From the NCBI RefSeq assembly GCF_058153355.1, contig NZ_CM177019.1: a DNA stretch of 64,000 nucleotides; one strand, 5' to 3'. The notes beneath the pieces were generated by a model, which saw nothing but the letters and a program-made list of their open reading frames with translations, ran no database searches and had not been told where the DNA came from. Shown in pieces: positions 12,615 to 38,194 of this stretch. Within the stretch, counting starts at the first letter, position 1, and each line of letters begins with the position of its first letter. Both the position numbers and the translations under genes were made by a program.

Positions 12615-12673
12615 AATGCACTCCTTATGTTAACGAAAGGATTGTACAGTAAAGCGCATTTGTTAACGAATCA

Positions 12674-13405
12674 TTAAATGCCGAGTGGGAAAATATCATG
12701 GCCTTGTTCCTGCCAACTGGTAAGTTGCTGCTGTTGGGCAGAGGTTCGATTTTCACCGCACCACACCAGCAATGTACGGCCTTCGAACAGTTCAGGGCGT
12801 AGTTGATTGAGCGAGTGGGCGAGGACATCAATGCGCCAGCCCTGTTGACTGGCAATCCAGCCCTCTAGCCACAGACGGGTGGTATCCTGAATATTCCAGC
12901 CAACCACCAGCGCATCTTTACCCTGTTTTTTACGTGCCGAAGCCAGACAAATGGCGATGTAGTTGATCAGTACGCCGTCGAGGATCGCCAGCAGCGCCTG
13001 GAGAGTCGGTTGTTGGCACTGAAGTCGTCGGCGCAGAGGAATAAACAGGTGCGTGGTGAGTGTCTGGGCGGGGTAATCCTGACCGCGCTCTTTGATCCAC
13101 GTTCGCAGGCTATGCAGATTGCCGCTTTGCAGGTAAGTCAGTAATGTTTCTTGCTGATCGCGCCAGCCGTTCTGCACATCAACATTTTCATTACTGAGCA
13201 GCATTTTAACTTTGCTGACCTGCACGCCGTTGTCGATCCAGCGTTTGATCTCGCGGATCCGGTCAATATCGGCATCATTGAACAGCCGATGACCGCCGTC
13301 TGTCCGTTGCGGTTTCAGCAATCCGTAACGCCTCTGCCACGCGCGTAACGTGACAGGGTTAATATCACAAAGCAACGCCACTTCACCAATTGTGTAAAGC
13401 GCCAT
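12674..13405 (-). CDS. mlrA: MerR-family transcriptional regulator (activator of csgD)
   Basis: N-terminal MerR-type HTH (YTIGEVALLCDINPVTLRAWQRRYGLL). Confidence 0.85.
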   Translation of the reverse strand: MALYTIGEVALLCDINPVTLRAWQRRYGLLKPQRTDGGHRLFNDADIDRIREIKRWIDNGVQVSKVKMLLSNENVDVQNGWRDQQETLLTYLQSGNLHSLRTWIKERGQDYPAQTLTTHLFIPLRRRLQCQQPTLQALLAILDGVLINYIAICLASARKKQGKDALVVGWNIQDTTRLWLEGWIASQQGWRIDVLAHSLNQLRPELFEGRTLLVWCGENRTSAQQQQLTSWQEQGHDIFPLGI

Positions 13406-17180: not shown

Positions 17181-19172
17181 TTACTCAAGCAAGGTTAATA
17201 ATTGTTCGCAAAGCAAAACGCAGTTATTCATTGCTTCTCCCCGTGCCTCGCCTTCTGTATTACGAAATTGTCCCAACACATGTGCCAGCCGATAAAAACC
17301 CATCGCGGTGAGTTCATTGACCAGCAACTCTGACTGACTAATGGCACTCTGTTCCTGATAGCGCCAGCCATTATGGAGCAGTTGAATAAGCAACGCCTGA
17401 CAGCGCATCAGTAACTGATGAGTGGTAGACGGTACAGGCAGAACGCTGGCAGAAGGTAGCGGTGCCACAGGCGCAGTTTCTGCGTCCAGCGCCCAGGCGC
17501 GGGTTTTTGTCATCATCACCCGTGGTTCCAGTGTCAATTGCCCCTCTACAAAACTGACAAAGCCAGAAACCAGACTCACGGGGTCGTCTGTTTGTTGTAA
17601 CAGAGCTGCCATGCGTTCAACGGCAAAAGGAGAACAGGCAGATGCCGGAAGGGATAACGTCAGCACATTATCGTCACCTTCGCCACTGATTACCTGCGCA
17701 TCCAGTGTCTGCCGACTGCTGTCCCAACCGAGTGAAATGCACTCTTCTACTGGCAGAATAAATAAGTTATCGACCTGGTTAAGCTGTCGTATGGCGGCTG
17801 GCGGACGTTGGCGTAAATATTCCCGCAAAGCCACAATGCCCGGCTGGCGCAGTGGTGCGCTCAACATTTGCCAGGCATCAGGCGACAGCGGAACAACACT
17901 GCTTAAGCGGTTGCGGGTAGCTAATAGCAACTCGCCATCAGCACTGCGTTTTGCTGCTTGTGAAACAATTTGCCCACCCGCCAGCGCGCCAGCCTGAAAA
18001 CTAAACAGCCGCCGTTTTGCCGCTGGAGAGTTATCCTGTTCACTTCTCGGCCAACTGCGCGAAAGATGCAAAATACTGCCGGTGTCGGGATCGGTGAACC
18101 AGATGCGTAAACCATACCGCTCATTATCCTGCCAGCAACGCATACCTAGTGACACCAGCCGCAAATGATCAAGCTTTGCTTCGCCAGCAATGCCTGCGCC
18201 AATGACCGTGCGCCACGGTATGGGCGGTACTTCACCGACACTGTCACGTCGCGCCATCTCTTGTGCACTGTTCAAGCGACTGGTTAACGCCGCAAGCTGG
18301 CACAAGCATTTTCCGGCATGATAGTAGCTGGCGCGGGCGTGGAAGGCATCAACGCTTGCCCGTAGCTGTCGTAGTGATTCACTTACCCAACGCCAGTTGC
18401 AGCGTTCCGCCGCTTGCTGCGCGCGGCTGAAAGCGGCCTCGTAGTGGATTGACGGTTGGCTGATGCCTCCCAGCCATAATGCCTGACTTAATTGCTGAAC
18501 ATATTGACGACATGCTTTACCTTCGTCGCTGGAAAACGGATCGTCAGATGATGTGACGTGTTCACTGTGCATCTGCCAGATCAAATGAGTAAATTCTGCT
18601 TGTTGATTTTTGGCCTCGACGAAGGCCTGCACAGCCAGTGCTACGTGTTCACACAGCGTTCCTTCAATACAATCACAACGGGCGAAACGAATGCTGCTGC
18701 GGGAATAAAAACGCACATCGCTCATCGGTAAGCGGGCAGAGGGAATTTCGCCCGGCGTGCAGAACAACTCAATGGTGATGCCTTTAGCGACCAGCGCCTG
18801 CGCGCGTTTGCGCGTGGTATTGGGCAGGGTAGCCAGTTCTTCCTGCCAGATTGCCGGATCCCACTCTTCTTCTTTTTCCGTAGGCTGGGCGGTGGCACAA
18901 AGTCGTTGATAACTTAACACCAGCATCACGCGATGACGGCACATGCCGCTGGCCCCGCAGCTGCATTGAGCCTCTTTCAGTGCCTGACTGTTCGCCAGCC
19001 GGGTACGGACACCGTCACTGAACGTGGCGATTAAAGCGCCGTTCTCATGGCAGATTTCCGGGACATTGCCATTTTCCAGTTCCTTAAGGCTGCGCTTCAC
19101 AAAACCAGCATTGCTTAACGCCGTCAGGGCCTGCGGTGTCAGTTCTAATAATTCCGGACGTAGTGAATTCAT
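17181..19172 (-). CDS. yehQ: SWIM zinc-finger protein with two CxC-x(n)-CxH motifs; last gene of the yehLMPQ operon
   Basis: Motifs CSCGASGMCRH and CDCIEGTLCEH. The start ATG overlaps the yehP stop as ATGA, so start is set at MNSLRPELL… (36th codon of the track ORF). Confidence 0.8.
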   Translation of the reverse strand: MNSLRPELLELTPQALTALSNAGFVKRSLKELENGNVPEICHENGALIATFSDGVRTRLANSQALKEAQCSCGASGMCRHRVMLVLSYQRLCATAQPTEKEEEWDPAIWQEELATLPNTTRKRAQALVAKGITIELFCTPGEIPSARLPMSDVRFYSRSSIRFARCDCIEGTLCEHVALAVQAFVEAKNQQAEFTHLIWQMHSEHVTSSDDPFSSDEGKACRQYVQQLSQALWLGGISQPSIHYEAAFSRAQQAAERCNWRWVSESLRQLRASVDAFHARASYYHAGKCLCQLAALTSRLNSAQEMARRDSVGEVPPIPWRTVIGAGIAGEAKLDHLRLVSLGMRCWQDNERYGLRIWFTDPDTGSILHLSRSWPRSEQDNSPAAKRRLFSFQAGALAGGQIVSQAAKRSADGELLLATRNRLSSVVPLSPDAWQMLSAPLRQPGIVALREYLRQRPPAAIRQLNQVDNLFILPVEECISLGWDSSRQTLDAQVISGEGDDNVLTLSLPASACSPFAVERMAALLQQTDDPVSLVSGFVSFVEGQLTLEPRVMMTKTRAWALDAETAPVAPLPSASVLPVPSTTHQLLMRCQALLIQLLHNGWRYQEQSAISQSELLVNELTAMGFYRLAHVLGQFRNTEGEARGEAMNNCVLLCEQLLTLLE

Positions 19173-20305
19173 GACTGAAGATTCTCCGCAAGCCAGGTAG
19201 CCAGTTCGCCCGGCGTCATTGCGGCTATTTGTGCGCCGACATTTACCAGCGCCTGGGCTGTATCGCGGTCGTAGCAAGGTGTTGCGGTGCTATCGAGCGC
19301 TGCCAGTCCCAGCACTTTGATGCCGCTCTGGACACACTTTTTCACCTGATGCGTCAGCAATGATGATGAACCCCCTTCATAAAAATCGCTCACGAGGATG
19401 ATGACGCTTTTCGCTGGTTGTTCAATAAGTTGCCGACCATATTCCACGGCGCTGGCGATATTGGTCCCGCCATCCAGCTGTACTTTCATTAATAACTCTA
19501 CCGGATCGGCAACGTCTGCCGTGAGATCGACGACGCTTGTGTCAAAAGCGACCAGATGGGTGCGGATACCGGGTAACTGCCATAAACAGGCCGCCATCAC
19601 CGCTGAGTGGATCACCGAATCGACCATTGAGCCGCTTTGATCAACCAGTAACACCAGCTGCCATTGTTCGCTATGGCGTTTAATTCGGCTGTTAAAGCGG
19701 GGGGATTCGATATACAACTTGCCGTGTTGCGGGTGCCAGTGTTGCAGGTTGGCGCGCAGAGTACTTTTGAAATCGAAATTACGTGCCAGTGGAATAAATG
19801 AGCGGCGACGGCGATCGCGGACACCTGAAAAAGCCTGACGAACTTCCTTTGCCAGTCGCGCCATAATTTCTTCAACAACCTGGCGCACTATCCGGCGGGC
19901 GGCAGCCAGCACTTCGGGATTCATCAGATGTTTGGTGTGCAAAACGGCGCGTAGCAGGCTTTCAGAAGGCTGCATACGCTCCAGCACGTCGAGATTCGTC
20001 ACCACATCTTCAATGCCGTAGCGCAGTACGGCATCGCTTTCCAGCCGCTCAATCACCCGTTGCGGAAATAGTGTGTGAATACTGTTGATCCACTCAGGGG
20101 TGGTGAGATTTGAGTCACCTAATCCACCGGAGCGTTCACCACGCTGGAGCCGTTCAGGATCGCGCCCATACAGCCACTCCAGCGCGTGGTCTATCTGCCG
20201 GGCATTGTCATCCAGCCCACAAAGCGTCGTTTCTGCCGCTTCGCCAAGAATTAATCGCCAGCGTTGTAGCTCACGAGTGGTCAGAAGATCGTTCAGTTCA
20301 GACAT
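19169..20305 (-). CDS. yehP: von Willebrand factor A domain protein with MIDAS motif
   Basis: DxSxS MIDAS motif (LLVDQSGSM); start at MSELNDLL…, 2 nt after the yehM stop. Confidence 0.8.
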   Translation of the reverse strand: MSELNDLLTTRELQRWRLILGEAAETTLCGLDDNARQIDHALEWLYGRDPERLQRGERSGGLGDSNLTTPEWINSIHTLFPQRVIERLESDAVLRYGIEDVVTNLDVLERMQPSESLLRAVLHTKHLMNPEVLAAARRIVRQVVEEIMARLAKEVRQAFSGVRDRRRRSFIPLARNFDFKSTLRANLQHWHPQHGKLYIESPRFNSRIKRHSEQWQLVLLVDQSGSMVDSVIHSAVMAACLWQLPGIRTHLVAFDTSVVDLTADVADPVELLMKVQLDGGTNIASAVEYGRQLIEQPAKSVIILVSDFYEGGSSSLLTHQVKKCVQSGIKVLGLAALDSTATPCYDRDTAQALVNVGAQIAAMTPGELATWLAENLQS

Positions 20306-22577
20306 GGAAAACTCCCCAGTGTTGCAGTGATGCCAGTGCCTGCTGTTCGAGTTGTTGATGATGTGCAATGGCTTGCGGTGGACAATGCAACGGCATTTGC
20401 AGCGCTGAAACGGGAAGCTGTGCGAGCTGGTAATGCTCAAGCACCTGATGCGCCAGCGTCCCGCGTTCTCGTGGTGGTAGCCAGGCCATCGCCGCGCGTA
20501 AATCGGGCAGGGCGTTAATAAAATCGTCGTCACTCAGTTGATTTAAATGACTACTGAAACCGGCGATAAATGCCGGCTGACAGGCCAGTTGATGGCGGGC
20601 CAGCGCCAGCAAACCGTGCAGCGCCTCGCCAGATTGTGCCGGGGATAATTGTGCCAGCATCGTCAGCGCCGCTTCGGCACTGGCGTTGGGATGTTCCAGA
20701 CGCATCAGCGCGCCAAGGGCCGCACCGCGATCCAGCGCTGGGGCATGAATCGCCTGACTGCGACGTTCCAGTAAGGCTACCGCCGCAGAAAGCGAAACGC
20801 CGGGTAAATTAACGCCGCTATTTAGATCGCGCAGGATATGGCAAAGCGCCTGCCAGCTATGCAGGTGAGCGTGAAACTCCTTCTCATCCGGCCTGCCGTT
20901 GGATTCACATAGCCACAGTGTGCGATCGATAGCCGCGTATAACGTCGTCTGTAATATCTGCGCGCCTTGCATACCGCTGATTTCATCGAGCTGCCACAAG
21001 GCGTAAAGCACTTCCAGCGCCTGGCCCATTTCGGCAAACTGATTTTCCTTGGCGATTAATAATGTGAGTTGTTCCAGTAATTGCTGACTGAAGGACGCCA
21101 GACCCGCTAACGCGGCCTGGCTAAGACATGTGGTGATGCCGCTGATTCCACCCGCGTCCAGCATATCGGCTTCTAATTTATTGCGTGCGGCCTCCTGGAG
21201 TGTGGCACCAAAGCAGGCGGCTTCAATCAATGCCGCATGTTGGCTAAGTGGCTGGGTTAATGTCCAGCGTTCTTCACCGTTGCCCGCCAGCGTCAGTGTA
21301 CTTCCTTGCTCGCGCACAATGCCGGGAATCTCCAGTATTACCAACTGATGTAGCACCTGACTTTGCGCCAGTCCATCGGGGGTAAAGCGATTTAAGGTAA
21401 GCTCCGCCGGAAGAGAGATTCCGGTACGTTCCAGTTCGTAGGTGACATCTTTTGGCAGAGGTGGCTGTGGCGTCGAGGGGGCAAGTTTACCGAATCCGTC
21501 ACCTGCTAATGTGTCTATCAACGTTACCAGTATCGGATCGGTATCGGGATGAATAACGTCGCGATAGCTCCACGGCAACGGCGCATTCAAGGCTTCTTTA
21601 ATCAGCGAGCCTGCTATGGCATCCAGCCAGTCAGTGCGTAACGGTAGTGTATGACCGCGCAACTGTGCCAGCGCCATCGCATGTAAATGAGCGGCAGCCA
21701 TATCCGCGGTTGAAGCAGGCAATTTGTGCTGGCGCAAACGGGTAAGAACCGTTTTTAGTAGTTGTTCACCTGCCTGCTGCAAGCCCCACCGCCAGCACCA
21801 GTTTTGCCAGACCGGGGCAGGCATTCCTGAAAGGTATCCTGCCAGCACATCAAGGCGCTTTTCACTGTATGGCGTGAGATAGCAACCTGTAACGGCATCA
21901 TCCTGTGAGAGCAATTCTGGCTTGTTAATTTCTTGCGGGCATTCGCGCCACATTTTTGCCAGTGCCGGAGCGTGCCAGCCTCCGCAGACGACTAATACGT
22001 CGCCATTATTTTGCTGCATCGCCCATGCAATCCAGCGGGCCATAAAGGCTTCGCGCTGACGATTGAGTGCATCGCCGGAGGCGTCGCCCCGCAGTTGTGC
22101 AAAATAGTGCGCCAGTGCAGAGGGTAATATAGTTTGCTGGCTTTCATCTTCGAACAAGTGATCCCACAAGGTGTCGCTGTTATCCATGCGGGTGGCACGC
22201 AGCAGAAAGGCCTGGCTTTCCTCTTGCATATCAGGCGAATCATCCTCTTCTTCACTTTGTGCCCAGCAAGGCAAATCGATGAAGTAAGTTTGTGCCTGAA
22301 TACGACGTGCGGCTTGTAGCGCCTGCCACTCCGGCGAAAATTCAGCAAATGGCGTCCAGGCACCACGCCCGGGGGCCGCACCGTCCTGATACTGGCAATA
22401 ACTGTAAATAGCTACCGGAAGCTGGTGGGCTAACAACAGTTCGTCTACCCGGTCATTAAAATCAGCCGGGCCTTCAATCAACACGTATCGTGGCCGCTGG
22501 CTTTCGATTAACGATTTCACCAGCCGGGCGCAGGCCGGACTATGATGCCGGATGCCGACAATTAACGGCTCGCTCAT
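20298..22577 (-). CDS. yehM: Large uncharacterised protein (759 aa) encoded between the MoxR ATPase and the vWA protein
   Basis: Start at MSEPLIVGIRHHSP…, 10 nt downstream of the yehL stop with GGAAAG upstream. I recognise no catalytic motif. Confidence 0.75.
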   Translation of the reverse strand: MSEPLIVGIRHHSPACARLVKSLIESQRPRYVLIEGPADFNDRVDELLLAHQLPVAIYSYCQYQDGAAPGRGAWTPFAEFSPEWQALQAARRIQAQTYFIDLPCWAQSEEEDDSPDMQEESQAFLLRATRMDNSDTLWDHLFEDESQQTILPSALAHYFAQLRGDASGDALNRQREAFMARWIAWAMQQNNGDVLVVCGGWHAPALAKMWRECPQEINKPELLSQDDAVTGCYLTPYSEKRLDVLAGYLSGMPAPVWQNWCWRWGLQQAGEQLLKTVLTRLRQHKLPASTADMAAAHLHAMALAQLRGHTLPLRTDWLDAIAGSLIKEALNAPLPWSYRDVIHPDTDPILVTLIDTLAGDGFGKLAPSTPQPPLPKDVTYELERTGISLPAELTLNRFTPDGLAQSQVLHQLVILEIPGIVREQGSTLTLAGNGEERWTLTQPLSQHAALIEAACFGATLQEAARNKLEADMLDAGGISGITTCLSQAALAGLASFSQQLLEQLTLLIAKENQFAEMGQALEVLYALWQLDEISGMQGAQILQTTLYAAIDRTLWLCESNGRPDEKEFHAHLHSWQALCHILRDLNSGVNLPGVSLSAAVALLERRSQAIHAPALDRGAALGALMRLEHPNASAEAALTMLAQLSPAQSGEALHGLLALARHQLACQPAFIAGFSSHLNQLSDDDFINALPDLRAAMAWLPPRERGTLAHQVLEHYQLAQLPVSALQMPLHCPPQAIAHHQQLEQQALASLQHWGVFHV

Positions 22578-22587
22578 GCATCTTTCC

Positions 22588-23676
22588 TCACGGCAGGCGG
22601 TGGCGAGCTTGATAATAAGCCTGCCAGTGAGCTTCTTTATGTGTAGCGACACGTTGTTCGAAGTAACGGCGCAGACGTGCGCGATCTTCTTCGTTATCTT
22701 TGACGATGGTTCCGGCAATACAGTCCACCAGGTCGGCTGGCTCCCCCGCGCGATTCGCTAAAAACCAGGCGCGGACGCCCACGGCGTGGGCCACGTTAAC
22801 GGCTTCAGCGGTGGACATAATCGCTGTAAGGGTATCCATTGACGTTTTCTTTTCGCCGTTGGCACGCAGATCGCGGAAGGTGCGTACCAGTAACTCAAGT
22901 ACCGCGTCAGGCACTTTATGCGGAATACCGCTATGGGCCAACAAACGCGCCGAAGCACTGGCGACCAGTTCCAGCTCCTGGGCGAAATCCATAATCGGAA
23001 AAACCGTTTCAAAATCGAATCGGCGTTTTAGTGCCGCGCTCATTTCATTAACGCCGCGATCGCGGGTATTGGCGGTGACAATAATATTAAAGCCTTCCCG
23101 CGCATAGAGCTGACTGGCTTCACCAGTGAGTTCCGGCACCGTCATAACCCTGTCAGAAAGCATACCTAACAGACAGTCTTGTACTTCCAGTGGTGTACGC
23201 GTTATCTCTTCAAAACGGACAATTTTGCCGTCGCGCATTCCCTGGTAGAGCGGGGCAGGGACCAGCGCTTCCGTTGACGGACCATGATTAATAAGCAGGG
23301 CGTAGTTCCAGCCGTACTTGATTTGATCTTCGGTGGTAGATGCGCCGCCCTGGATAGTTAACCCAGCATCGCCGCTAATAGCGGTTGCCAGTAATTCAGA
23401 CAGGAGAGATTTTGCGGTGCCAGGTTCCCCCACCAACATCAAACCGCGCCCGGTAGCAAGAGTGACTAACATGCGTTCGACAGCGGAGGGACTAATCACG
23501 ACTTTACGGCTGATATTTTGCGCGCTATCGCCAAGAATAAAAGAACGGGCCGCAGGCAAACTTAACTGCCAACCGGGCGGGCAAGGTGCGTTATCATTTT
23601 GCTTTAATTTTGCCAGTTCATCGGCGTATAACACAGCGGCAGGCGGACGCTGCAGATGATTATTCTGCGGTGACAT
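22588..23676 (-). CDS. yehL: MoxR-like AAA+ ATPase
   Basis: Walker A GEPGTAKS (codons at about 23407..23430); size and layout typical of MoxR/RavA-type ATPases that partner with vWA proteins. Confidence 0.85.
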   Translation of the reverse strand: MSPQNNHLQRPPAAVLYADELAKLKQNDNAPCPPGWQLSLPAARSFILGDSAQNISRKVVISPSAVERMLVTLATGRGLMLVGEPGTAKSLLSELLATAISGDAGLTIQGGASTTEDQIKYGWNYALLINHGPSTEALVPAPLYQGMRDGKIVRFEEITRTPLEVQDCLLGMLSDRVMTVPELTGEASQLYAREGFNIIVTANTRDRGVNEMSAALKRRFDFETVFPIMDFAQELELVASASARLLAHSGIPHKVPDAVLELLVRTFRDLRANGEKKTSMDTLTAIMSTAEAVNVAHAVGVRAWFLANRAGEPADLVDCIAGTIVKDNEEDRARLRRYFEQRVATHKEAHWQAYYQARHRLP

Positions 23677-23785
23677 ATATTCATCCCTGAAATGTATTAA
23701 TCAAATAAACGATATTTTACGCGCAATAAATGTTTGGCGCATTAGTTGTTTGAGCGGAAAATATCTGGAAAGCAGATCACAGTAA

Positions 23786-23867
23786 ATAAAAAAACCTGCT
23801 GGTGAGGCAGGTTCTTTTATTTACTACTTTGACGATAACTTGCTGATTGTGCAACATTTCGTACCAA
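23786..23867 (-). ncRNA. orzO: Putative OrzO-like antisense sRNA (type I antitoxin), about 80 nt
   Basis: Minus-strand promoter (-35 TTGCAA, 17-bp spacer, perfect -10 TATAAT), an 18-nt 5' segment complementary to the zorO-like 5' UTR with one G-U wobble, and an intrinsic terminator. Transcript ends are inferred. Confidence 0.5.
23793..23813 (-). terminator. Rho-independent terminator (stronger on the minus strand)
   Basis: 7-bp stem aacctgc/gcaggtt with loop tggtgag, followed on the minus strand by TTTTTTTATTT. Confidence 0.6.
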
Positions 23868-23874
23868 CGAATGA

Positions 23875-23903
23875 ATTATAACCATATCCACATCCCGTTG
23901 CAA
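23875..23903 (-). promoter_or_regulatory. Sigma70-type promoter for the putative sRNA
   Basis: -35 TTGCAA at 23898-23903, 17-bp spacer, -10 TATAAT (reverse complement of 23875-23880). Confidence 0.5.
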
Positions 23904-23925
23904 TTCACTAAGCGAGATTTATAAT
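23898..23925 (+). promoter_or_regulatory. Sigma70-type promoter for the zorO-like mRNA, sharing the palindromic -35 with the divergent sRNA promoter
   Basis: -35 TTGCAA at 23898-23903, 16-bp spacer, -10 TATAAT at 23920-23925; this predicts a 5' UTR of about 175 nt. Confidence 0.45.
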
Positions 23926-24106
23926 CGTGCCCGTTGGGAGGTTGTGCCGGATTGAACCAATTTCAAGTCCTGGCTGCCGGACGGGGGGTGCCGCAGGTGG
24001 TGCCCTGATCCGGAGAGCAACGTTTCGTACCAACATACGTAAACCAGTATCGACAGGCAGTGTAAGGGTAAGGTGCTGGTGTTGCGCTCCTTAATAAGGA
24101 GAGCGG

Positions 24107-24196
24107 ATGGACACGCTGACACAAAAGTCAACCGTGCTCATTGCCGTACTGGAGTTATTAGTGGCTCTGTTGCGGTTGATTGATTTGTTGAAGTAA
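24107..24196 (+). CDS. zorO: 29-aa hydrophobic peptide, type I toxin-like (ZorO/DinQ/TisB class)
   Basis: AAGGAG 5 nt upstream of ATG; translation MDTLTQKSTVLIAVLELLVALLRLIDLLK is a single amphipathic/TM helix resembling known type I toxins. Not in the supplied ORF track (below cutoff). Confidence 0.55.
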   Translation: MDTLTQKSTVLIAVLELLVALLRLIDLLK

Positions 24197-24217
24197 CGGG
24201 CAAATTGAAACGCATCT

Positions 24218-24241
24218 AAGGGGGAATACCGTTTCCCCCTT
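24218..24241. terminator. GC-rich hairpin between the zorO-like ORF and the 3' end of yehK
   Basis: aagggggaa-taccg-ttccccctt 9-bp stem; flanking T tract is weak. Confidence 0.4.
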
Positions 24242-24249
24242 TAATAAAG

Positions 24250-24570
24250 CTATTTTTCTATTTGTTGGATGAATATATTTTGTAGTTCACGATTAAAAAT
24301 TGCTATTACAGTTTTAGGTGATTCACCTCGTAATTTACGCTCATCAATAAATTCATCTCTTATATAAATCAACGCATCATTTATTAGCGGGTCGACATCT
24401 TCTCGATCACGTTGATGAAATGTTGGATGTAGCCGGAATCGCTCCAACCGGTAGACGGAACCAGTAAATAATTCAGAGCATTTATGGATCTCAAGTCTGA
24501 AGGAAAACGGATCTTCAGGTACAGGGACTTCATAATCATAAGTAGCGACCAGCTCTTTTTGCACGATCAT
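24250..24570 (-). CDS. yehK: Small uncharacterised protein (106 aa)
   Basis: Intact ORF 60 bp downstream of yehI on the same strand. Confidence 0.75.
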   Translation of the reverse strand: MIVQKELVATYDYEVPVPEDPFSFRLEIHKCSELFTGSVYRLERFRLHPTFHQRDREDVDPLINDALIYIRDEFIDERKLRGESPKTVIAIFNRELQNIFIQQIEK

Positions 24571-24630
24571 CGCTTTTCCCGGTGGTAAGTCGTGTTGATA
24601 ACGGGCAGTCGCATCACTGCCCGCTGTGTT

Positions 24631-27600
24631 TTAATGGAAAATGACGTCAGGTGCGCTTAACGCTTCACTCAAATCAAACGTATCGAGTTCGGCAAAAGTG
24701 ACAGATTTATTGTCACGGTACACTCGAAGAGAACGGAAGCTCATTAGCGCTTTGCTATCAGCACTGTAGTGGTTAAAACCGGGTGAAAACTTAAGGACCA
24801 GCCGATACTCGCCCAGGTCATAGACACATGCGTCCTCAAAACCTGACTCCCAGCCTTTGTATCGCATTCCCATAAGTTGCCCAACGGTTGCGGATTTACC
24901 TTCCCAGCGAGTCAGGCTGTTACTGGCTGACTCGTCAGGTGTGAGCAGCACTGTGCGCCGCATCAACTGGCGAAAAGGCGGCATAATTTCGTAATCGGCA
25001 AAAACCTGTGCAAATTCACTGCGCATTTCTGCTGTCATTTCTAACGGGTGGGCAATGCCAATCAGAGCATCCGCAGGCAGGTCAATTGGCTCATCTTGTG
25101 CGTTGCAGAACTCCCCCTCAGCGGCCACGCGAAAGGCGTTGAGTAAACGACGCGGTTCATTTGCCGGATAAACCGCCCATATTAATCGCTGAGTAACCAG
25201 GCGAGTAAAGGGATGATTAACAAACAGAGAATGAAAATCTGCCAGCGACCAGCGTCGGGTGGTGCGTAGGGCAGTTTCAAGACGCGGGAGCAGGTTTTTG
25301 CTCACCTGAGTGGCATCTTTTTTTAGCCCTTTTAGTCGGGCCAGTGCCTCGGGTGCTTTCAGCTGATCGTCATCGGCGCGCAACCGGGGAACACTTTTCT
25401 GGCGAACGTTTTGCTGATCAAAGATAACCGGGTTGAGGTTTTCATCGAAGCGAACGGTAAACTGCCGGGGTCCAAAATCAAATATCAACGCCTGCGGATC
25501 ATCCAGGCCCAGTGTTGGGACTAATCTGTCCGCTAACTCTTCCTGGCTTAGTCCACGATTTTCTGCGACCACCTGAAGAAATTCCGCCGCGTTATCACGT
25601 AAGGGACGGGATTTCGCCCGTTGCGATATATGATGCAGCTGTATCAGCGCCATATCATTATTCATCAGGGTAAGTATGTTCAGGCCACTGACGGCGCGGG
25701 CAGATTTGCCTTCCTGTGGCCAGGCGAGGATCTGTGTTGTCAGATCCCGAGCCGTGCTTTCGTCACCAAAGAGACTTAACGCCAAAAAAGCCCAGTTGTC
25801 TTTTGCGGGGGCGCCAGCCTGTTGCCAGGCGGTGAAGAGATCCCAGGCAAAAGCGGCCAGCGTTTGTGGCTGGCAGAACGTTTTCAGTTGTTCCAGCCCA
25901 CAATAAAAACGTCCGCCCTGGGTAAAGCGCAGCATTTCGCCGATAATTTCCAGAGCATCATCAGTAACATGTTGATTATTCGTGATAATTCTCGGTCTGG
26001 ACCACATTGTCGGATGCCAGAAATCAGGGGCTTTGGGAATGCGTGCCGGGTAAATGTCCATTGGACCCTGTTTAAGTAATTGCTCCAGGGCAGGCCATAC
26101 ATCTGTATGCTGCCAGCGGTTTGCCACGGTTTGCAGTAATTCGCCATGCCCTTGTTCATACAGTAAACGCAGAGCGCTGAGTGCCGCTTCGCTGTTATCG
26201 CCAGACCTGGCAAAGATTAATGGGATCAGCGCCGTAGCCGTATGCTCCGGCCATTGTAAAATCCACTGGCGAGCCAGATTACGCTGGCCCGCAAAACGAT
26301 GCCAGACGCGGGCAACGGGCAGCGCCAGTTCTGTTGCGCCAAAATGAATCAGCAGCGGAAATATCTCTTTGGGATGTCGGGCAAAGGCGGTGATTAATCC
26401 GGGCAAAGCATCGGTACCCAGGACACTTAACAGATATTCTACCCCGGTGTAATGAAAATCAGCCGCGACAATTTGTTGCCAGCACGATACCGCCATTTCG
26501 CGCGGCATTTGCGCGATAAGATACAGGTTCCATACTCCCCAACGCTTTTCATCAGTGTAATTAAATTTGCGTTGGAAAGTTCGCCACCCCTCCATCAACG
26601 CAACACTATCTTGTGCCAGTAATGCGCTGGCGGCCTCTTCCCGGTAGTGTTTATTTTCATTCTGTTTTGCCTGATAATTGAGCAATCTTCCTACTGAAGT
26701 ATGTGTCTCTAGTTGATCGGTATCCAGAGCATCCAATTGTCCTTTGAGAATAAACTCATTAAACTTCCACCTGTGATCTTCAAAACCTAATTCCCGCAAG
26801 AAGGTATCCGCCCCTCTGTTAGCAAGACGTTCGTCAAAAGACATGGCGCTAAAATGGTCAATTGCAGTTTGCTGTTCCGGCGTCCAGTGTTTATTCGGCG
26901 ACCTGTACGCTTGCGGTACAAGCGTAAGTTCAGGTAGCGAAAAGTGAGTTATGGAAGCCTTTTTCCTGCCACGCCACGGTGGTGAAACGAGGATTTCAGG
27001 CAGACTACTGTTATCGGTGCTATCAATAACCGGTTTTGGCGAAGCCGATAAATAACTATTCACCACTGCCCGGGCTTGAGTACTTAACGACGGGATCACC
27101 TCTTCTGCCAGTTGTGGCTGCGATGCCATCAGCGTTTGTAACAGCGTACGCCAGTATTCATCACGTGCTTTTTGCTGTGCAGGCAGCTTTTTGTCTTCGA
27201 TGATAGGATAACCAGGGCGCGTAGGGGGGGCTTTTAACGCCAGTAGTTCTGCCAGTGCGGCGAGCGTCGCATGGGGAAAGTTTTTACTGTATTTAGCCAC
27301 ACGCTGCAGGCTGGGTTTGTTTTTATCGGCAACTAACAGCAAGATGCGAATAACTTGCGGATGGTTAATTTGTACCAGCAGGCTACCGCAATCTTCTTTA
27401 TGGGCATACATCGCGAGGCGTGGAACGGCTGCAATTCCTTGTTCGCGCAAAAGGGCGGCGCAGGCCGCGTAGCCGAAGTGGTTTTCATGCGACATGTAGC
27501 TGGCTTCGCGATCGCTAAATATATCCTGGCTCCAGTAGCGTTCGAGTTTTCTCACCGCTCTGGGGTCATTAGCAACAACTTTTAACCACTCCTTAGAATG

Positions 27601-28287
27601 AAAATGAGTCCGCGGGCATTCAAGGCCTACCAACTCATTGGCGATTTCTGGTTTCTCCGGGAGGATGAGTGCAATAAAAGGACGGCGAACTTGGGGTAGT
27701 CCTGGCAGTGCGGCAATGAGTTTGTCGGCGCAACGCTGCCAGCAGCTTTCCTCTGCCAGAGAGAGAGGCTTACGCAGTCGGAGATCGAATTCGTTATAGG
27801 TTTCTGAGCGATAACCATAACCATAGCCATAGTCCTCCTTCTGATACTGCAATGTTACTACCAGAGGATCGTTCTCATAACACCGCGCAATAAACTGGCG
27901 TGCAATCACCACCTCAGTCGCATATTCCAGCCCCTCTTGTTGGACGATTTCGTCGAGCAACTGTTGGCTGTCATTTTGCGCGATACAGGCTAGCGCCGCC
28001 ATTGTCCGGGCCGGAATTGAGGGTTTGTGCTCGCCGATCAAGTTGATGGCTTGCGTAATGGCCGACTGCCACTCCAGTGAAAAATTTTCATAACGCCAGA
28101 CAATGTTTTTTTTCTTCTCAGCAATGTGTAGCAATTTATCACCCAGTGTCTGGATGAGGCTTTCAGTGATAACAGGCACCGGTTCGCCCGGCCAATTGCG
28201 ATGGCTGAGTGGTGTTTTGCCTTTTTTATATTTCAGTTCCAGTTGGGCGTTATCCGCCAGCCACGGTAATTCCTTGTCCATGCTCAT
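24631..28287 (-). CDS. yehI: Very large DUF4132-family protein, paralog of the two upstream MolR-like ORFs but lacking their N-terminal WGR-like domain
   Basis: 1218-aa ORF; central and C-terminal regions align visibly with the two upstream paralogs (for example …DFGPRQFTV.FDE.L.P… and …FADYE..PPF.QL…). Start lies 3 nt after the upstream gene's stop. Confidence 0.8.
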   Translation of the reverse strand: MSMDKELPWLADNAQLELKYKKGKTPLSHRNWPGEPVPVITESLIQTLGDKLLHIAEKKKNIVWRYENFSLEWQSAITQAINLIGEHKPSIPARTMAALACIAQNDSQQLLDEIVQQEGLEYATEVVIARQFIARCYENDPLVVTLQYQKEDYGYGYGYRSETYNEFDLRLRKPLSLAEESCWQRCADKLIAALPGLPQVRRPFIALILPEKPEIANELVGLECPRTHFHSKEWLKVVANDPRAVRKLERYWSQDIFSDREASYMSHENHFGYAACAALLREQGIAAVPRLAMYAHKEDCGSLLVQINHPQVIRILLLVADKNKPSLQRVAKYSKNFPHATLAALAELLALKAPPTRPGYPIIEDKKLPAQQKARDEYWRTLLQTLMASQPQLAEEVIPSLSTQARAVVNSYLSASPKPVIDSTDNSSLPEILVSPPWRGRKKASITHFSLPELTLVPQAYRSPNKHWTPEQQTAIDHFSAMSFDERLANRGADTFLRELGFEDHRWKFNEFILKGQLDALDTDQLETHTSVGRLLNYQAKQNENKHYREEAASALLAQDSVALMEGWRTFQRKFNYTDEKRWGVWNLYLIAQMPREMAVSCWQQIVAADFHYTGVEYLLSVLGTDALPGLITAFARHPKEIFPLLIHFGATELALPVARVWHRFAGQRNLARQWILQWPEHTATALIPLIFARSGDNSEAALSALRLLYEQGHGELLQTVANRWQHTDVWPALEQLLKQGPMDIYPARIPKAPDFWHPTMWSRPRIITNNQHVTDDALEIIGEMLRFTQGGRFYCGLEQLKTFCQPQTLAAFAWDLFTAWQQAGAPAKDNWAFLALSLFGDESTARDLTTQILAWPQEGKSARAVSGLNILTLMNNDMALIQLHHISQRAKSRPLRDNAAEFLQVVAENRGLSQEELADRLVPTLGLDDPQALIFDFGPRQFTVRFDENLNPVIFDQQNVRQKSVPRLRADDDQLKAPEALARLKGLKKDATQVSKNLLPRLETALRTTRRWSLADFHSLFVNHPFTRLVTQRLIWAVYPANEPRRLLNAFRVAAEGEFCNAQDEPIDLPADALIGIAHPLEMTAEMRSEFAQVFADYEIMPPFRQLMRRTVLLTPDESASNSLTRWEGKSATVGQLMGMRYKGWESGFEDACVYDLGEYRLVLKFSPGFNHYSADSKALMSFRSLRVYRDNKSVTFAELDTFDLSEALSAPDVIFH

Positions 28288-28290
28288 TCC

Positions 28291-31200
28291 TTATTCAAAC
28301 AGGGCTTCGATGTCGTTAATTAACTCGCTAGCGGTGATGTCATCGAGTGCGGAGAACTGCGCTTCCTGTGTTGAATTAATCCCCCAGCCATAGCTTTCTG
28401 CTTTGCCTTCCCATAGCCACAGCTTGCTTAAGAGTTGCTCGGCACTGAGTTCGGCTGGCGACATACCAACTGCAAATCCTTCATCGATTTCCATGATTAA
28501 TGACCAGCGGCCCAGAGGTTTGATCATCCAGCCGATCCAGCCACCGTCCTGCGGTTCACCACGCATCCAGCCTTTATTCGCCAGCCCCATTACCCGACCG
28601 CTCGGGCATTTTCTGCCTGCCCAGCGGGTCAATTCGCTGGCATTGCGCTCGGTTTCTGTCAGGGCGTAACTGTTACGGTCGAGCTGGCGGAACGGCGGTA
28701 GCAGTTCGTAGTCGGCAAAAAGCTGACCAAAGGCGGCAGCATCCGTGGGTGATATTTCCAGAACGTGAGGAATGCCAACAGAGATATCGCCTTCCGGCAG
28801 GGTGAAAAGATCATCGTCAGCGGTGCTGTAGCTGTTATCTTCCGCCACACGGAAGCACGCCAGTAACTGGTTGTCTGCGCTATAAATGCCCCAAATCAGA
28901 CGGCGGGTTAAGTGGCAGACCAGCGGATGCTCAACCAGAAAGAGCTGAAAGTTTTCTGGCGACCAGCGGCGGCGCAGGCACATGGCGGATTCCAGCCTTG
29001 CCACCTGCTGGGCGGCAACGGTACGCGCATCTTTTTTCAGCAGTTTGTAGCGGTTAACTGCATCGTTCGCTTGAGTTTCATCATCGCTTTTGTTCGGTTT
29101 AGGCAAGTCTTTCAGGCGGCTGCCGGAAGCATCACGCACAAACGGTTTTAAGGTTTCATCAAAGCTGACGGTGAACTGCCGTGGCCCGAAATCCAGCAGC
29201 AGCGAACCGTTATCATCCAGACCGAGATCCGGTGCTAACCGGTCTTCAAGCTCCGCCACCGTGAGTTCGCGGCTCTCGGCAATGTCGGCAATTTTTTCTT
29301 TTGCCCGCTCCTGTAATGCTTTGAATTTCAGTTTCTGGGCGATGCCGTTAAGCTGCATCAGGGCGATATCACTACCGATAGCAGCGAGAATATCCAGCCC
29401 GACGGTGGCGCGTTTATGCTGGGATTCACCAGGCCAGGCGCGAATCAAAGGCGTCAGTTTGCGGGCGGTATCATCGTTGCCGAGAACACCTAACGCAGTG
29501 AACGCCCAGCTTTCTTTCGACGGTGCGCCAGCGGTCTGCCAGGCGGTAAACAGATCCCAGGCAAATTCAGCCAGTGAGTCGGCGGTACAGGCATCTTTCA
29601 CCTGCAATAACCCCGCATACAGAGCCTCTTCCTGAGGGAAGCGGAGCATTTCACCGAGGTGGAGGAGGGCGTTATCTGGCAGTGATTGGGCGTTTGCTTT
29701 TAATACCGGGCGTGTCCAGAGCGATGGCTGATAAAAGGCCGGAAGTGTCGGGATTTTAGTCGGGTGATTATCTAAGGGATCGAGCGCAAGTAGAGCGTTC
29801 ACCGCATCGGTTACTTCCGGCTGGTTATAACGCTGGGCGATTTCTTGCAGTAATGACGGATAACCACTTTCAATCAACATACGTAAGGCGGCGCGGGCGT
29901 TATCCTGGGCTTCACCAGCTTTGCCGAGTGCCGCAGGCAACAGGCCGATAATGGCATGTTCCGGATATTTCAGCAGCCAGGTGCGGGCGTCTTGTCGTAG
30001 AGTTTTGAGTTTGTTAAAGGCGCGGGCGACGGCAGGAGCCAGTTCCGTTGCGGCAAAATAATTAGCAACCGCAAAACCTTCTTGAGGGTAGCGTGAAAAC
30101 GAGTGTAGAAAACCACTCATACCTGCCAGTCGCAAATAAAGCATGACAGGTTTTACCGCGGTATGCGGCTCTTTGCTGAGAAACTCCCATAGTTTAATCG
30201 CTGTTTGCATAGGTAAAAAGGGAAGTGAGTTGAGATGCCACTCCCCCTGATACGGTGCATGGTGGGCTTTAAACATTTGGATGAGTGTAGCGAAGTCCTC
30301 ACGTTCCCATGCGTCAATTGCCGAGTCAGAAGCGCCGATATATTTATATGTGTCAAAATCCCAGCGGCGATACCCCAGCGAGTAAAGGAAATCTTTAGCA
30401 CCTTCACCTGGCTTATGCGATTCCCAGTCCCAATGAGTTTGAAACTCTTTTGCTTCTGTGTCGGTTATTGTGCATATGGATTTGAGTTTGAGCGGTGCTA
30501 AATCCAACACCGGAATCGTCGATTTTTTCTTTTTCGAAAGCCAGGGAGGTAAGACTAATACGGCTGGCAGTAGAGCGGCGCAGGCATGGTTTGACGGTTG
30601 TATCAGTTGTTGCTGGCATGATTTCAGCACTTCAACTGCGGCTGTCGAGAGCCAGGGAGTGACCTGTTCTGCCAGTGCCGGTTGCGAGATAAGCATCGTC
30701 ATTAGCATAATGCGCCAAGTATTCTCTTCTTTTTGCGCAAGAAGTTCCGCCAGTGCCGCCAGTGCTGCGTGTGGGAACGCAGCGCAAGCTTTCGTCATCC
30801 GATCGTGACAGCGTTTAGTTTGCCCGGCTACACGTATGAGCAGTGTTAATGCGAACGGATGATTGATATGACGCAATACATCTGCGCAGTAGTCACTTGC
30901 GGCATAGGGAGCAAATCTGGGCAGGGCTGCAACACCTTGCTCCTGTAATACGGTGGCTGACAATATCGCACCACAATAGTAATCATCAAAAATGGCATAT
31001 GGCTCGTGATATTTTTCTAATGAGGCAAGAATGTGCTCATCAGTCGCCACTATTTTTAGCCACTCAAGCGAGGGTAATTTTTTTTTCCCCAGTAGACGCT
31101 GGGCAATTTCATGTGCAATTTCTGGTTTTTCGGGTAATAACAAAGCAATTAATGGTTGCCGCCATTCTGGAATATGTGGAATTGCGGCAATAAGTTTTTG

Positions 31201-32079
31201 TGCACATTTTTGCCAGAGAGACTCTTCCGCCAGTGATAAATGTTTCCGTAGGCGTAATTCAAAACTGGAATATTGCTGCAGGTTATCAGGTGCAATACCA
31301 GACGGCAGAATAATAATGGTATTATTCGCATAATCCCATTCAATATCAATCTGTTGAAGATGTATTACTACATCAGTAGCATATTCCAGGCCACCTTCCT
31401 GAACGAGCTGATCCATAACATCCTCACGCTCTTTATATCTCGTGCACTTCAGTTCAAGTGCCGTGAGTACAGCCATTACTGGTGATGGTAACTGTGTTGT
31501 TTTCAGGCAGTCGATCTGACTGAGCGCCTGGGAGATGGCGTTTTGCCATTCTAAAGAACAGGCGCTGAAGTCAAATGTGGCTGTTTTATTATCCCGTTGC
31601 AACACGCTACAGGCTAAGCGGCGTAACTGGGTCAATTCGTCTGCTTGCTGAACAGGAACTCCGGGAAAGCGGCGATGGCTTAACGTGGTGTGTACAACTT
31701 CGGGCGGAAAAACGACAGCAATATCTTTCGCCAGCCACGGTAAAACATCATCTGTATTTTTGTCAGCCACACGGGCTTCTGCTACGCAAAAGGGTTGTTC
31801 CTGAATAATGGTGGATAAGGCCGCTACCTTGAGAGAATCCGTTACCGTTTGGGAAGGTTGCAAAGAATTATCCTTCGCTTGCCCCACATACCCCTTCTTC
31901 ACCTTCTCCGCAATCAGCCTCAGTTCCGCTTTTTCCGCCGCCGCAGCATCAGCAAAGCTTTTTACCTGGCTTTGCCCGTTGGTACTGACTTTGCCCCAAC
32001 TAATATGCAGCTCGTTTCCCTGTTGCTCCACTGCCCAGAATTTATGTGATTTTTCGTCCTGATAAATATAGGTTTTCAT
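28291..32079 (-). CDS. MolR/YehH-family protein: N-terminal WGR-like domain plus DUF4132-type body (paralog A)
   Basis: 1262-aa ORF starting MKTYIYQDEKSHKFWAVEQQGNELHISWGKV…; ends …SVLDDITASELINDIEALFE. Its ribosome-binding site (AAGGAA) overlaps the stop of paralog B. Confidence 0.8.
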   Translation of the reverse strand: MKTYIYQDEKSHKFWAVEQQGNELHISWGKVSTNGQSQVKSFADAAAAEKAELRLIAEKVKKGYVGQAKDNSLQPSQTVTDSLKVAALSTIIQEQPFCVAEARVADKNTDDVLPWLAKDIAVVFPPEVVHTTLSHRRFPGVPVQQADELTQLRRLACSVLQRDNKTATFDFSACSLEWQNAISQALSQIDCLKTTQLPSPVMAVLTALELKCTRYKEREDVMDQLVQEGGLEYATDVVIHLQQIDIEWDYANNTIIILPSGIAPDNLQQYSSFELRLRKHLSLAEESLWQKCAQKLIAAIPHIPEWRQPLIALLLPEKPEIAHEIAQRLLGKKKLPSLEWLKIVATDEHILASLEKYHEPYAIFDDYYCGAILSATVLQEQGVAALPRFAPYAASDYCADVLRHINHPFALTLLIRVAGQTKRCHDRMTKACAAFPHAALAALAELLAQKEENTWRIMLMTMLISQPALAEQVTPWLSTAAVEVLKSCQQQLIQPSNHACAALLPAVLVLPPWLSKKKKSTIPVLDLAPLKLKSICTITDTEAKEFQTHWDWESHKPGEGAKDFLYSLGYRRWDFDTYKYIGASDSAIDAWEREDFATLIQMFKAHHAPYQGEWHLNSLPFLPMQTAIKLWEFLSKEPHTAVKPVMLYLRLAGMSGFLHSFSRYPQEGFAVANYFAATELAPAVARAFNKLKTLRQDARTWLLKYPEHAIIGLLPAALGKAGEAQDNARAALRMLIESGYPSLLQEIAQRYNQPEVTDAVNALLALDPLDNHPTKIPTLPAFYQPSLWTRPVLKANAQSLPDNALLHLGEMLRFPQEEALYAGLLQVKDACTADSLAEFAWDLFTAWQTAGAPSKESWAFTALGVLGNDDTARKLTPLIRAWPGESQHKRATVGLDILAAIGSDIALMQLNGIAQKLKFKALQERAKEKIADIAESRELTVAELEDRLAPDLGLDDNGSLLLDFGPRQFTVSFDETLKPFVRDASGSRLKDLPKPNKSDDETQANDAVNRYKLLKKDARTVAAQQVARLESAMCLRRRWSPENFQLFLVEHPLVCHLTRRLIWGIYSADNQLLACFRVAEDNSYSTADDDLFTLPEGDISVGIPHVLEISPTDAAAFGQLFADYELLPPFRQLDRNSYALTETERNASELTRWAGRKCPSGRVMGLANKGWMRGEPQDGGWIGWMIKPLGRWSLIMEIDEGFAVGMSPAELSAEQLLSKLWLWEGKAESYGWGINSTQEAQFSALDDITASELINDIEALFE

Positions 32080-32091
32080 TGCTAATTCCTT

Positions 32092-38063: not shown

Positions 38064-38194
38064 AGTAGGCATTACTTCTTAATAGTGAAAAGGGGTTAGA
38101 TAGTACCAAATGGGAAAATGTTAAGTAAGTACTTCTCTATATTCTTCAGGTAAACTATCAGCTGATGGTTTATCTATACAAAAAAGGAGTCGGG

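What the first reader, a model, noticed from the sequence alone, without database searches (positions are those of the whole stretch)
23786..24241. Compact type I toxin-antitoxin-like module (zorO/orzO-like) between yehK and yehL
An unlisted 29-codon ORF (24107..24196) with a strong AAGGAG ribosome-binding site encodes MDTLTQKSTVLIAVLELLVALLRLIDLLK, a single amphipathic/TM helix closely resembling type I toxins (TisB, DinQ, ZorO). A palindromic TTGCAA at 23898-23903 serves as -35 for two back-to-back promoters, each with a perfect TATAAT -10. The plus-strand promoter would give the peptide mRNA a 5' UTR of about 175 nt. The minus-strand promoter would give an roughly 80-nt RNA ending at a strong intrinsic terminator (23793-23813 followed by a T7 run). 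The first 18 nt of that small RNA are complementary to 24017-24034 in the peptide mRNA's 5' UTR with one G-U wobble, seen as the direct repeat GCAAC(A/G)TTTCGTACCAAC. This is the architecture of an sRNA-repressed toxin. From memory the peptide matches ZorO from enterohaemorrhagic E. coli, a locus I believe is absent from K-12.
Basis: partly seen in the sequence, partly recalled or inferred. Interest (0 to 1): 0.6.

Follow-up and report, generated by a model that had tools for sequence, protein, structure and literature searches.

The report
Known zorO-orzO toxin-antitoxin locus

Summary
The module is not merely zorO/orzO-like. It is the zorO-orzO locus first described in E. coli O157:H7 EDL933 (Fozo 2010; Wen 2014, 2017; the 2024 mSystems survey).

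- **sRNA:** the minus-strand RNA (23868 to 23788) matches Rfam OrzO-P (RF02083) at 90.6 bits, against a gathering score of 60.
- **Toxin:** the peptide is ZorO with one substitution, L8S (28 of 29 residues).
- **Landmarks:** the shared -35 TTGCAA, both TATAAT -10 boxes, the 174-nt 5' UTR, the AAGGAG RBS at +164..+169 and the OrzO target at +85..+102 all fall on the published positions. The V1 triplet GAA marks it as O-type.
- **Location and copy number:** it is a single copy between yehL and yehK, the published location.

There are two small corrections. K-12 lacks zor but keeps an orphan orzP. The G-U wobble is also present in the O157:H7 copy.

The only unusual point is L8S. It is absent from 5,426 complete E. 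coli genomes and from a 15-billion-protein set. It is also the single difference in 5 kb from the nearest public assembly. It lies in the N-terminal part shown to be dispensable for toxicity. The finding is ordinary and already known.

The parts
23788..23868 (-). orzO antitoxin sRNA gene (81 nt, from the inferred TSS at G23868 to the end of the U-run)
   Evidence: Rfam RF02083 OrzO-P covers 23861 to 23788 at 90.6 bits (gathering score 60, E = 6.8e-15). It is 78/81 identical to O157:H7 orzO. The fold energy is -22 kcal/mol, z = -3.85.
23851..23868 (-). OrzO 5' seed, GUUGGUACGAAAUGUUGC. Positions +9..+11 are GAA, the O-type V1 triplet.
   Evidence: It forms 17 Watson-Crick pairs plus 1 G-U with 24017-24034. 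GAA is the published V1 of OrzO and ACG that of OrzP (PMC3919570).
23793..23813 (-). orzO intrinsic terminator stem-loop, followed by the U-run ending at 23788
   Evidence: The terminator scan found it on the + strand reading of the palindrome, with 8 pairs. It appears in the fold and in the Rfam consensus 3' hairpin.
23875..23880 (-). orzO -10 box, TATAAT
   Evidence: It matches the conserved element in Table 3 of PMC11264685.
23898..23903 (.). Palindromic TTGCAA, the shared -35 for both divergent promoters
   Evidence: Spacers are 16 nt (+ strand) and 17 nt (- strand). TTGCAA is listed as the -35 of both zor and orz in PMC11264685.
23920..23925 (+). zorO -10 box, TATAAT
23933..24106 (+). zorO 5' UTR, 174 nt from the inferred TSS at G23933
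   Evidence: The length equals the published 174 nt (PMC5397157). It is 169/174 identical to the O157:H7 zorO UTR. The TSS is inferred by homology and was not measured here.
23933..23960 (+). First 28 nt of the UTR, removed in the translationally more active delta-28 form of the EDL933 mRNA
   Evidence: Mapped by position from PMC5397157. In the predicted fold, +1..+7 pairs with +96..+102 and the following bases pair with +85..+91, which closes the OrzO target.
24005..24034 (+). EAP region (+73..+102), the putative ribosome standby site. It contains GGAGAG at 24012-24017.
   Evidence: Positions come from PMC5397157. The conserved GGAG(T/A)G motif is required for full toxicity (PMC11264685). 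Predicted unpaired probability of the target rises from 0.36 in the full-length mRNA to 0.53 in the delta-28 form.
24017..24034 (+). OrzO target site (+85..+102), GCAACGUUUCGUACCAAC
   Evidence: It is identical to the O-type target in O157-like, R32_14_1F and E. whittamii copies.
24087..24101 (+). RBS hairpin CUCCUU-AAU-AAGGAG. The RBS AAGGAG is at 24096-24101 (+164..+169).
   Evidence: Fold. RBS unpaired probability is 0.07 to 0.08 in both mRNA forms. The published RBS position is +164..+169 and it is sequestered in a stem (PMC5397157).
24107..24196 (+). zorO ORF, 29 codons: MDTLTQKSTVLIAVLELLVALLRLIDLLK (ZorO with L8S)
   Evidence: It is 28/29 identical to ZORO_ECO57. Across 9 copies, residues 9-29 carry only synonymous changes.
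24129..24129 (+). The T-to-C difference (TTA to TCA) that produces L8S
   Evidence: It is the only mismatch in 5,089 bp against GCA_043012465.1 and one of 3 mismatches plus one 2-nt indel in 21 kb.
24218..24241 (+). zorO 3' terminator-like hairpin (AAGGGGGAAUACCGUUUCCCCCUU), abutting the yehK stop codon
   Evidence: Fold. The 3' segment is 45/45 identical to O157:H7. The simple terminator scan did not flag it because its T-run is short.

Best explanation
[quoted passage not shown] The mechanism below is taken from experiments on the EDL933 allele and applied here by near-identity.

1. Two divergent sigma-70 promoters share one palindromic -35.
2. The + strand promoter makes the zorO mRNA with a 174-nt 5' UTR. 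The RBS is locked in a hairpin, and the 5' end folds onto the +73..+102 (EAP) region, so the primary transcript is poorly translated.
3. Removal of the first 28 nt exposes the EAP region, a probable ribosome standby site, and boosts translation of the 29-residue inner-membrane toxin. The toxin depolarises and damages the membrane.
4. The - strand promoter makes the 81-nt OrzO RNA. Its first 18 nt pair with +85..+102 of the zorO UTR. This blocks standby loading and triggers RNase III-dependent decay, without needing Hfq.

Shown here: the identity and position of every sequence element. Inferred: that both RNAs are expressed in this strain, and that the L8S toxin is still toxic.
For: - Rfam OrzO-P match at 90.6 bits against a gathering score of 60. 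It is the only such match in the 64-kb window.
- The peptide is 28/29 identical to UniProt ZORO_ECO57.
- Identity to the O157:H7 O copy is 169/174 (UTR), 88/90 (ORF), 45/45 (3' end) and 78/81 (orzO). All are higher than to the P copy.
- The promoter hexamers, the RBS and the 29-codon ORF match the elements conserved in 99% or more of 2,439 zor/orz loci.
- The 18-nt seed and target pair, and the V1 triplet GAA, are identical to O-type.
- Across three specificity types (O, P and a third), the seed and its cognate target change together while remaining 16-17 Watson-Crick pairs at +85.
- The ORF shows 8 synonymous against 3 nonsynonymous changes, with every nonsynonymous change in residues 3, 6 and 8.
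- The predicted fold sequesters the RBS and pairs the 5' end with the target.
- The location between yehK and yehL equals the published yehI-yehL interval.
- Experimental literature: toxicity, northern blots and TSS mapping (PMC2887945); rescue by OrzO, RNase III dependence and the V1 rule (PMC3919570); UTR processing and the EAP region (PMC5397157).
- The ALLRL motif (residues 20-24) is needed for toxicity and the N-terminal 13 residues are dispensable (PMC6669753). ALLRL is intact here and L8S falls in the dispensable part.
Against: Nothing contradicts the identification. There are four caveats.

- No expression data exist for this strain.
- The L8S allele has never been tested. It was not found in 5,426 complete E. 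coli genomes (best ORF match 98.2%) or in the 15-billion-protein set.
- The in-silico opening of the EAP region on removal of 28 nt is modest (0.36 to 0.53).
- NCBIfam has no model for the peptide, and RefSeq leaves the locus unannotated in the genomes inspected.
Confidence: 0.95

Rival explanations
1. The module is a genuine zorO-orzO locus, but the toxin is attenuated or inactive in this strain. L8S would replace a hydrophobic residue at the N-terminal edge of the membrane helix with a polar one, as a first step towards the orz-only state seen in about 30% of E. coli.
For: L8S is the only difference in 5 kb from the nearest public assembly, which encodes canonical ZorO. One of about 4 differences in 21 kb falls in a 90-nt ORF, where about 0.02 would be expected per difference set. 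The allele is absent from large collections. Toxin loss with the antitoxin retained is common at this locus (PMC11264685).
Against: Deleting the first 8 or 13 residues of ZorO leaves toxicity intact, and ALLRL (20-24) is the required part. ALLRL is unchanged here (PMC6669753). Hydrophobicity of residues 9-28 is unchanged. The promoter, RBS, UTR and pairing site are all intact. A single hit on the ORF is an after-the-fact observation.
Confidence: 0.08
2. The C at 24129 is a sequencing or assembly error, in which case the locus encodes canonical ZorO.
For: It is a private single-base difference from an otherwise 99.98% identical assembly. It was found nowhere else.
Against: The site is not in a homopolymer or a repeat. 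The two other substitutions and one dinucleotide-repeat indel in 21 kb are what closely related strains would show. No read data are available to decide.
Confidence: 0.15
3. The resemblance is due to chance: a non-coding spacer with a fortuitous small ORF, promoter-like hexamers and a repeat.
For: Promoter-like and terminator-like matches alone are not above shuffle expectation in this 750-bp region (2 against 1.5, and 1 against 0.9).
Against: The Rfam score is far above gathering. There is 97% nucleotide identity to an experimentally characterised locus at the same chromosomal position. The 17/18 repeat compares with at most 14/18 in shuffles. Seed and target covary across types. The substitution pattern in the ORF is biased towards synonymous changes.
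Confidence: 0.01

Closest known systems
zorO-orzO (z3289/sRNA-1) of E. coli O157:H7 EDL933
   Same: Chromosomal position (yehK/yehI to yehL), divergent layout, shared -35, both -10 boxes, 174-nt UTR, RBS position, 18-nt seed and target including the G-U, V1 = GAA, 29-residue toxin with ALLRL, and both terminators. Nucleotide identity is 96 to 100% per element.
   Different: The toxin carries L8S. The locus is single-copy here, whereas EDL933 has the tandem zorP-orzP plus zorO-orzO pair. There are 5 substitutions in the UTR and 3 in orzO, all outside the seed. The host genome is a divergent Escherichia lineage: the yeh region is about 93% identical to most E. coli and the best metG match is 98.1%.
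zorP-orzP (z3290/sRNA-2) and the third (Q-like) zor/orz type
   Same: Same family, same architecture and the same Rfam model.
   Different: The seed and V1 differ (P is GUUGGAACACGAUGUUGC, V1 = ACG). The toxins differ (T3S in ZorP, A20S in ZorQ). OrzP does not repress zorO (PMC3919570). The window copy is clearly O-type.
tisB-istR1 and shoB-ohsC (E. coli type I TA with a divergent, trans-acting sRNA)
   Same: A divergently encoded sRNA pairs through its 5' end with a long, structured toxin 5' UTR. A processed mRNA is the active form, and a standby-site mechanism is involved. The toxins are small inner-membrane peptides.
   Different: There is no sequence homology. The Rfam ohsC model scores only 28.5 bits against a gathering score of 50, driven by the terminator. 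tisB is under LexA control, and no such control is known for zorO.

Membership tests
zor-orz type I toxin-antitoxin family (ZorO/OrzO) | 29-residue hydrophobic Zor peptide | tested here: met
   It is 28/29 identical to ZORO_ECO57. The ORF is 29 codons long. ALLRL at residues 20-24 is intact.
zor-orz type I toxin-antitoxin family (ZorO/OrzO) | Divergently encoded Orz sRNA that matches the curated OrzO-P covariance model | tested here: met
   RF02083 at 90.6 bits against a gathering score of 60, full length 1-76.
zor-orz type I toxin-antitoxin family (ZorO/OrzO) | The 5' 18 nt of Orz are complementary to the cognate zor 5' UTR (at least 15 continuous or 17 discontinuous pairs). The V1 triplet sets the O or P specificity. 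| tested here: met
   17 Watson-Crick pairs plus 1 G-U at +85..+102. V1 = GAA, which is O-type. The sequence is identical to the O157:H7 O copy.
zor-orz type I toxin-antitoxin family (ZorO/OrzO) | Conserved expression signals: -35 TTGCAA, -10 TATAAT on both sides, RBS AAGGAG at +164..+169, and a 174-nt UTR | tested here: met
zor-orz type I toxin-antitoxin family (ZorO/OrzO) | Chromosomal location in the yehI/yehK to yehL interval | tested here: met
   The flanking ORFs are yehL and yehK. The position is the same in R32_14_1F, strain 112 and O157:H7 TR01 and in the original description.
zor-orz type I toxin-antitoxin family (ZorO/OrzO) | The RBS is sequestered in a stem, and the 5' end occludes the EAP/target region until processing | tested here: inconclusive
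   The thermodynamic prediction agrees on the RBS (unpaired probability 0.07) and on pairing of the 5' end with the target. Predicted opening after removal of 28 nt is modest. Structure probing exists only for the EDL933 allele.
zor-orz type I toxin-antitoxin family (ZorO/OrzO) | The peptide is toxic on overproduction, and OrzO rescues this in a pairing-dependent and RNase III-dependent way | not testable with these tools
   This was shown for the EDL933 allele (PMC2887945 and PMC3919570). The L8S allele is untested.
zor-orz type I toxin-antitoxin family (ZorO/OrzO) | Both RNAs are transcribed in the host | not testable with these tools
   No transcriptome is available for this strain. Northern blots and primer extension exist for EDL933, and for OrzPmg in MG1655.
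shoB-ohsC | The sRNA matches the ohsC model | tested here: not met
   28.5 bits against a gathering score of 50. The alignment rests on the terminator hairpin.

The most novel reading that the evidence does not exclude
The L8S change may be a very recent, selected alteration of the toxin rather than noise. It is the only difference in 5 kb from the nearest public genome and is unseen in thousands of E. coli genomes. It could tune membrane insertion or lower toxicity, and it could be a snapshot of the path by which lineages lose zor while keeping orz.
Probability: 0.08. Interest if true: 0.25.

Novelty: already known. Interest (0 to 1): 0.08.

Why it matters
This matters little beyond correct annotation. 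RefSeq leaves zorO and orzO unannotated in every genome inspected here, so recognising the locus from raw sequence is a useful annotation catch. The system, its mechanism, its location, its copy-number variation and its sequence variants have all been published. The single-residue variant (L8S) and the presence of the locus in a divergent Escherichia lineage and in E. whittamii are only minor additions to the known distribution.

Tried and rejected
- **NCBIfam scan of the peptide:** no family. This is uninformative for a 29-residue peptide.
- **Sub-threshold Rfam hits** (ohsC, STnc370, Thr and Trp leaders, rliD, and a + strand OrzO-P hit at 25 bits): all sit on the terminator palindrome and fall below their gathering scores, so they were rejected.
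- **Whole-RNA duplex prediction of OrzO against the zorO mRNA:** it did not separate from shuffled controls (-54.9 against a shuffle minimum of -54.1 kcal/mol). It was not used. The argument rests on the exact 18-nt seed and its covariation.
- **Exact 41-nt UTR pattern against one genome per species:** only E. whittamii was found. An exact pattern misses diverged copies, so this says little about distribution. That locus is only 86-90% identical to the window, so it is not the source.
- **Other ORFs overlapping the UTR** (55 aa on the + strand, 70 aa and 53 aa on the - strand): these were treated as spurious, because the region is explained by the UTR.
- **Not run:** a metagenome scan for the L8S allele was judged not worth the cost.

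Full report
**Observation**

- A 29-codon ORF at 24107-24196 encodes MDTLTQKSTVLIAVLELLVALLRLIDLLK. AAGGAG lies at 24096-24101.
- There is a single palindromic TTGCAA at 23898-23903.
- TATAAT boxes lie 16 nt away on the + strand (23920-23925) and 17 nt away on the - strand (23880-23875). These are the only two promoter-like sites found in 23600-24350.
- On the minus strand a strong stem-loop (23813 to 23793) runs into seven U ending at 23788. An RNA starting at G23868 would therefore be 81 nt. It folds better than all 200 shuffles (z = -3.85).
- The 18-mers at 23851-23868 and 24017-24034 agree at 17 of 18 positions. The single A/G difference gives a G-U pair in the sRNA:mRNA duplex. Shuffles of the intergenic region never exceeded 14 of 18.
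- The flanking genes are yehL (22588-23676, minus strand) and yehK (24250-24570, minus strand).

**Identity**

- The minus-strand RNA matches the curated Rfam family OrzO-P (RF02083) over its full length at 90.6 bits, against a gathering score of 60. It is the only such match in the 64-kb window.
- An exact look-up shows that MDTLTQKLTVLIAVLELLVALLRLIDLLK is the protein UniProt calls Small toxic protein ZorO (ZORO_ECO57). The T3S variant is ZorP. The window peptide is therefore ZorO with L8S.
- Compared with the two tandem copies in an O157:H7 genome, the window module is closer to zorO-orzO than to zorP-orzP:

| Element | Identity to zorO-orzO | Identity to zorP-orzP |
|---|---|---|
| 5' UTR | 169/174 | 163/174 |
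| ORF | 88/90 | 84/90 |
| 3' end | 45/45 | 43/45 |
| orz | 78/81 | 65/81 |

- The seed GUUGGUACGAAAUGUUGC carries GAA at +9..+11. This is the V1 triplet that Wen et al. showed defines OrzO as opposed to OrzP, which has ACG (PMC3919570).
- The seed and target are identical, G-U included, to those of the O copy in O157-like strain 112, in strain R32_14_1F and in Escherichia whittamii.

**Landmarks**

With +1 at G23933, the published coordinates of the EDL933 mRNA fall exactly on the window features (PMC5397157):

| Published landmark | Window position |
|---|---|
| 5' UTR, 174 nt | 23933-24106 |
| RBS, +164..+169 | 24096-24101 (AAGGAG) |
| EAP region, +73..+102 | 24005-24034 |

The RBS-like GGAG(T/A)G motif that is needed for full toxicity (PMC11264685) is GGAGAG at 24012-24017. 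The -35, -10, RBS and ORF-length values are those conserved in 99% or more of 2,439 surveyed loci.

**Location and copy number**

Fozo et al. 2010 placed z3289 and z3290 between yehI and yehL. They noted tandem or single copies in most E. coli, in Shigella and in E. fergusonii, and a 0.3-kb interval in MG1655 against 1.2 kb in EDL933 (PMC2887945). I confirmed the same flanks in three annotated genomes, none of which annotates the locus. The window has a single copy in a 573-bp interval. About 25% of E. coli share that state. Of 5,426 complete E. coli genomes, 3,393 carry at least 80% of the interval. Many others match only the orz half.

**Mechanism**

The mechanism is taken from experiments on the EDL933 allele and applied here by near-identity.

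1. ZorO overproduction arrests growth, and OrzO rescues it. The rescue needs RNase III but not Hfq, and the first 18 nt of OrzO suffice.
2. The full-length UTR hinders translation. A processed delta-28 form exposes the EAP region, a probable standby site, and is translated better.
3. OrzO pairing at the EAP region also blocks translation.
4. ZorO sits in the inner membrane. It damages membrane integrity and potential and provokes hydroxyl radicals.

- **Fold:** the predicted fold of the window mRNA puts the RBS in a CUCCUU/AAGGAG hairpin, with unpaired probability 0.07-0.08. It pairs +1..+7 with +96..+102. Removing 28 nt raises the unpaired probability of the target from 0.36 to 0.53, which is only modest support.
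- **Covariation:** across three specificity types, the seed and its cognate target change together and keep 16-17 Watson-Crick pairs at +85.
- **Coding constraint:** across nine ORF copies there are 8 synonymous and 3 nonsynonymous changes. All nonsynonymous changes are at residues 3, 6 and 8, and residues 9-29 are invariant at the protein level.

**The one unusual point: L8S**

- No complete E. coli genome has the window's ORF exactly. The best match is 98.2% over 111 nt.
- The exact peptide is absent from the 15-billion-protein collection.
- An exact look-up of the window's YehL found a public assembly, GCA_043012465.1. It is identical to the window over 5,089 bp except at 24129, the T-to-C change that makes L8S. 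That assembly encodes canonical ZorO.
- Over 21 kb the two sequences differ by 3 substitutions and one GT-repeat indel.
- L8S is therefore private and very recent, or it is an error.
- Otsuka et al. found that deleting the N-terminal 8 or 13 residues does not affect toxicity, and that ALLRL (20-24) is required. ALLRL is intact here, so I infer that the allele is still toxic. This has not been tested.

**Source organism**

The yeh region is about 93% identical to most E. coli and at most 97% to a handful of genomes. The best metG match is 98.1%. The window therefore comes from a divergent Escherichia lineage that is not represented among complete RefSeq E. coli genomes. It is not E. whittamii, whose locus is 86-90% identical.

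- K-12 is not empty at this site. It keeps an orphan P-type orz, with Rfam score 99.9 bits and seed GUUGGAACACGAUGUUGC. This was already published as OrzPmg.
- The peptide is 28/29 identical to ZorO, not identical.
- The G-U wobble belongs to the canonical pairing.

**Verdict**

The feature is already known, and interest is low.

Noticed in passing
window 24129: The base that creates L8S in ZorO is the only mismatch in 5,089 bp against the nearest public assembly (GCA_043012465.1, contig DAXYJU010000009.1). That assembly encodes canonical ZorO. Over 21 kb the two differ by 3 substitutions and one indel.
   Followed up: partly
window 24631-35889 (minus strand): There are three tandem large paralogous ORFs (1218, 1262 and 1265 aa; DUF4132, with a WGR domain in one) upstream of yehK. 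In K-12 only yehI is intact, and the neighbours are yehH (pseudogene) and yehF. In GCA_043012465.1 no gene is called across the middle paralog. At 31686-31692 that assembly has (GT)2 where the window has (GT)3, a 2-nt difference that would shift the reading frame.
   Followed up: partly
L004 8410-8485 (E. coli K-12 MG1655, yehK-yehL spacer): K-12 keeps an orphan orzP antitoxin gene without any zor toxin (Rfam 99.9 bits). This is consistent with the published OrzPmg. Its function without a target is unknown.
   Followed up: partly
L003 about 12000-13281 (Escherichia whittamii Sa2BVA5): [quoted passage not shown] The P-type toxin has Q6R. [quoted passage not shown]
   Followed up: partly
window 18000-30000 and 36030-38072: The host genome is unusually divergent for E. 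coli. The yeh region is about 93% identical to almost all 5,426 complete genomes and 97% at best. The best metG match is 98.1%. It may belong to a cryptic or peripheral Escherichia lineage.
   Followed up: partly
window 3198-3278 (+): Rfam Peptidase-S11 RNA motif (73.1 bits) immediately upstream of the ORF at 3274-4215.
   Followed up: no
window 49128-49224 (+): TPP riboswitch (71.2 bits) upstream of the ORFs at 49259-50844. This is presumably the thiM-thiD leader.
   Followed up: no
window 57079-57149 (+): Match to naRNA4 (CssrE, a REP-derived nucleoid-associated RNA) at 60.0 bits, just above its gathering score of 59.5.
   Followed up: no
window 23677-23868: orzO is transcribed towards yehL, in the same direction, and its terminator lies about 110 nt before the yehL start codon. 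On the other side, the zorO terminator hairpin abuts the yehK stop codon. The module therefore sits inside what is a short yehK-yehL spacer in K-12, and it could influence read-through into yehL.
   Followed up: no
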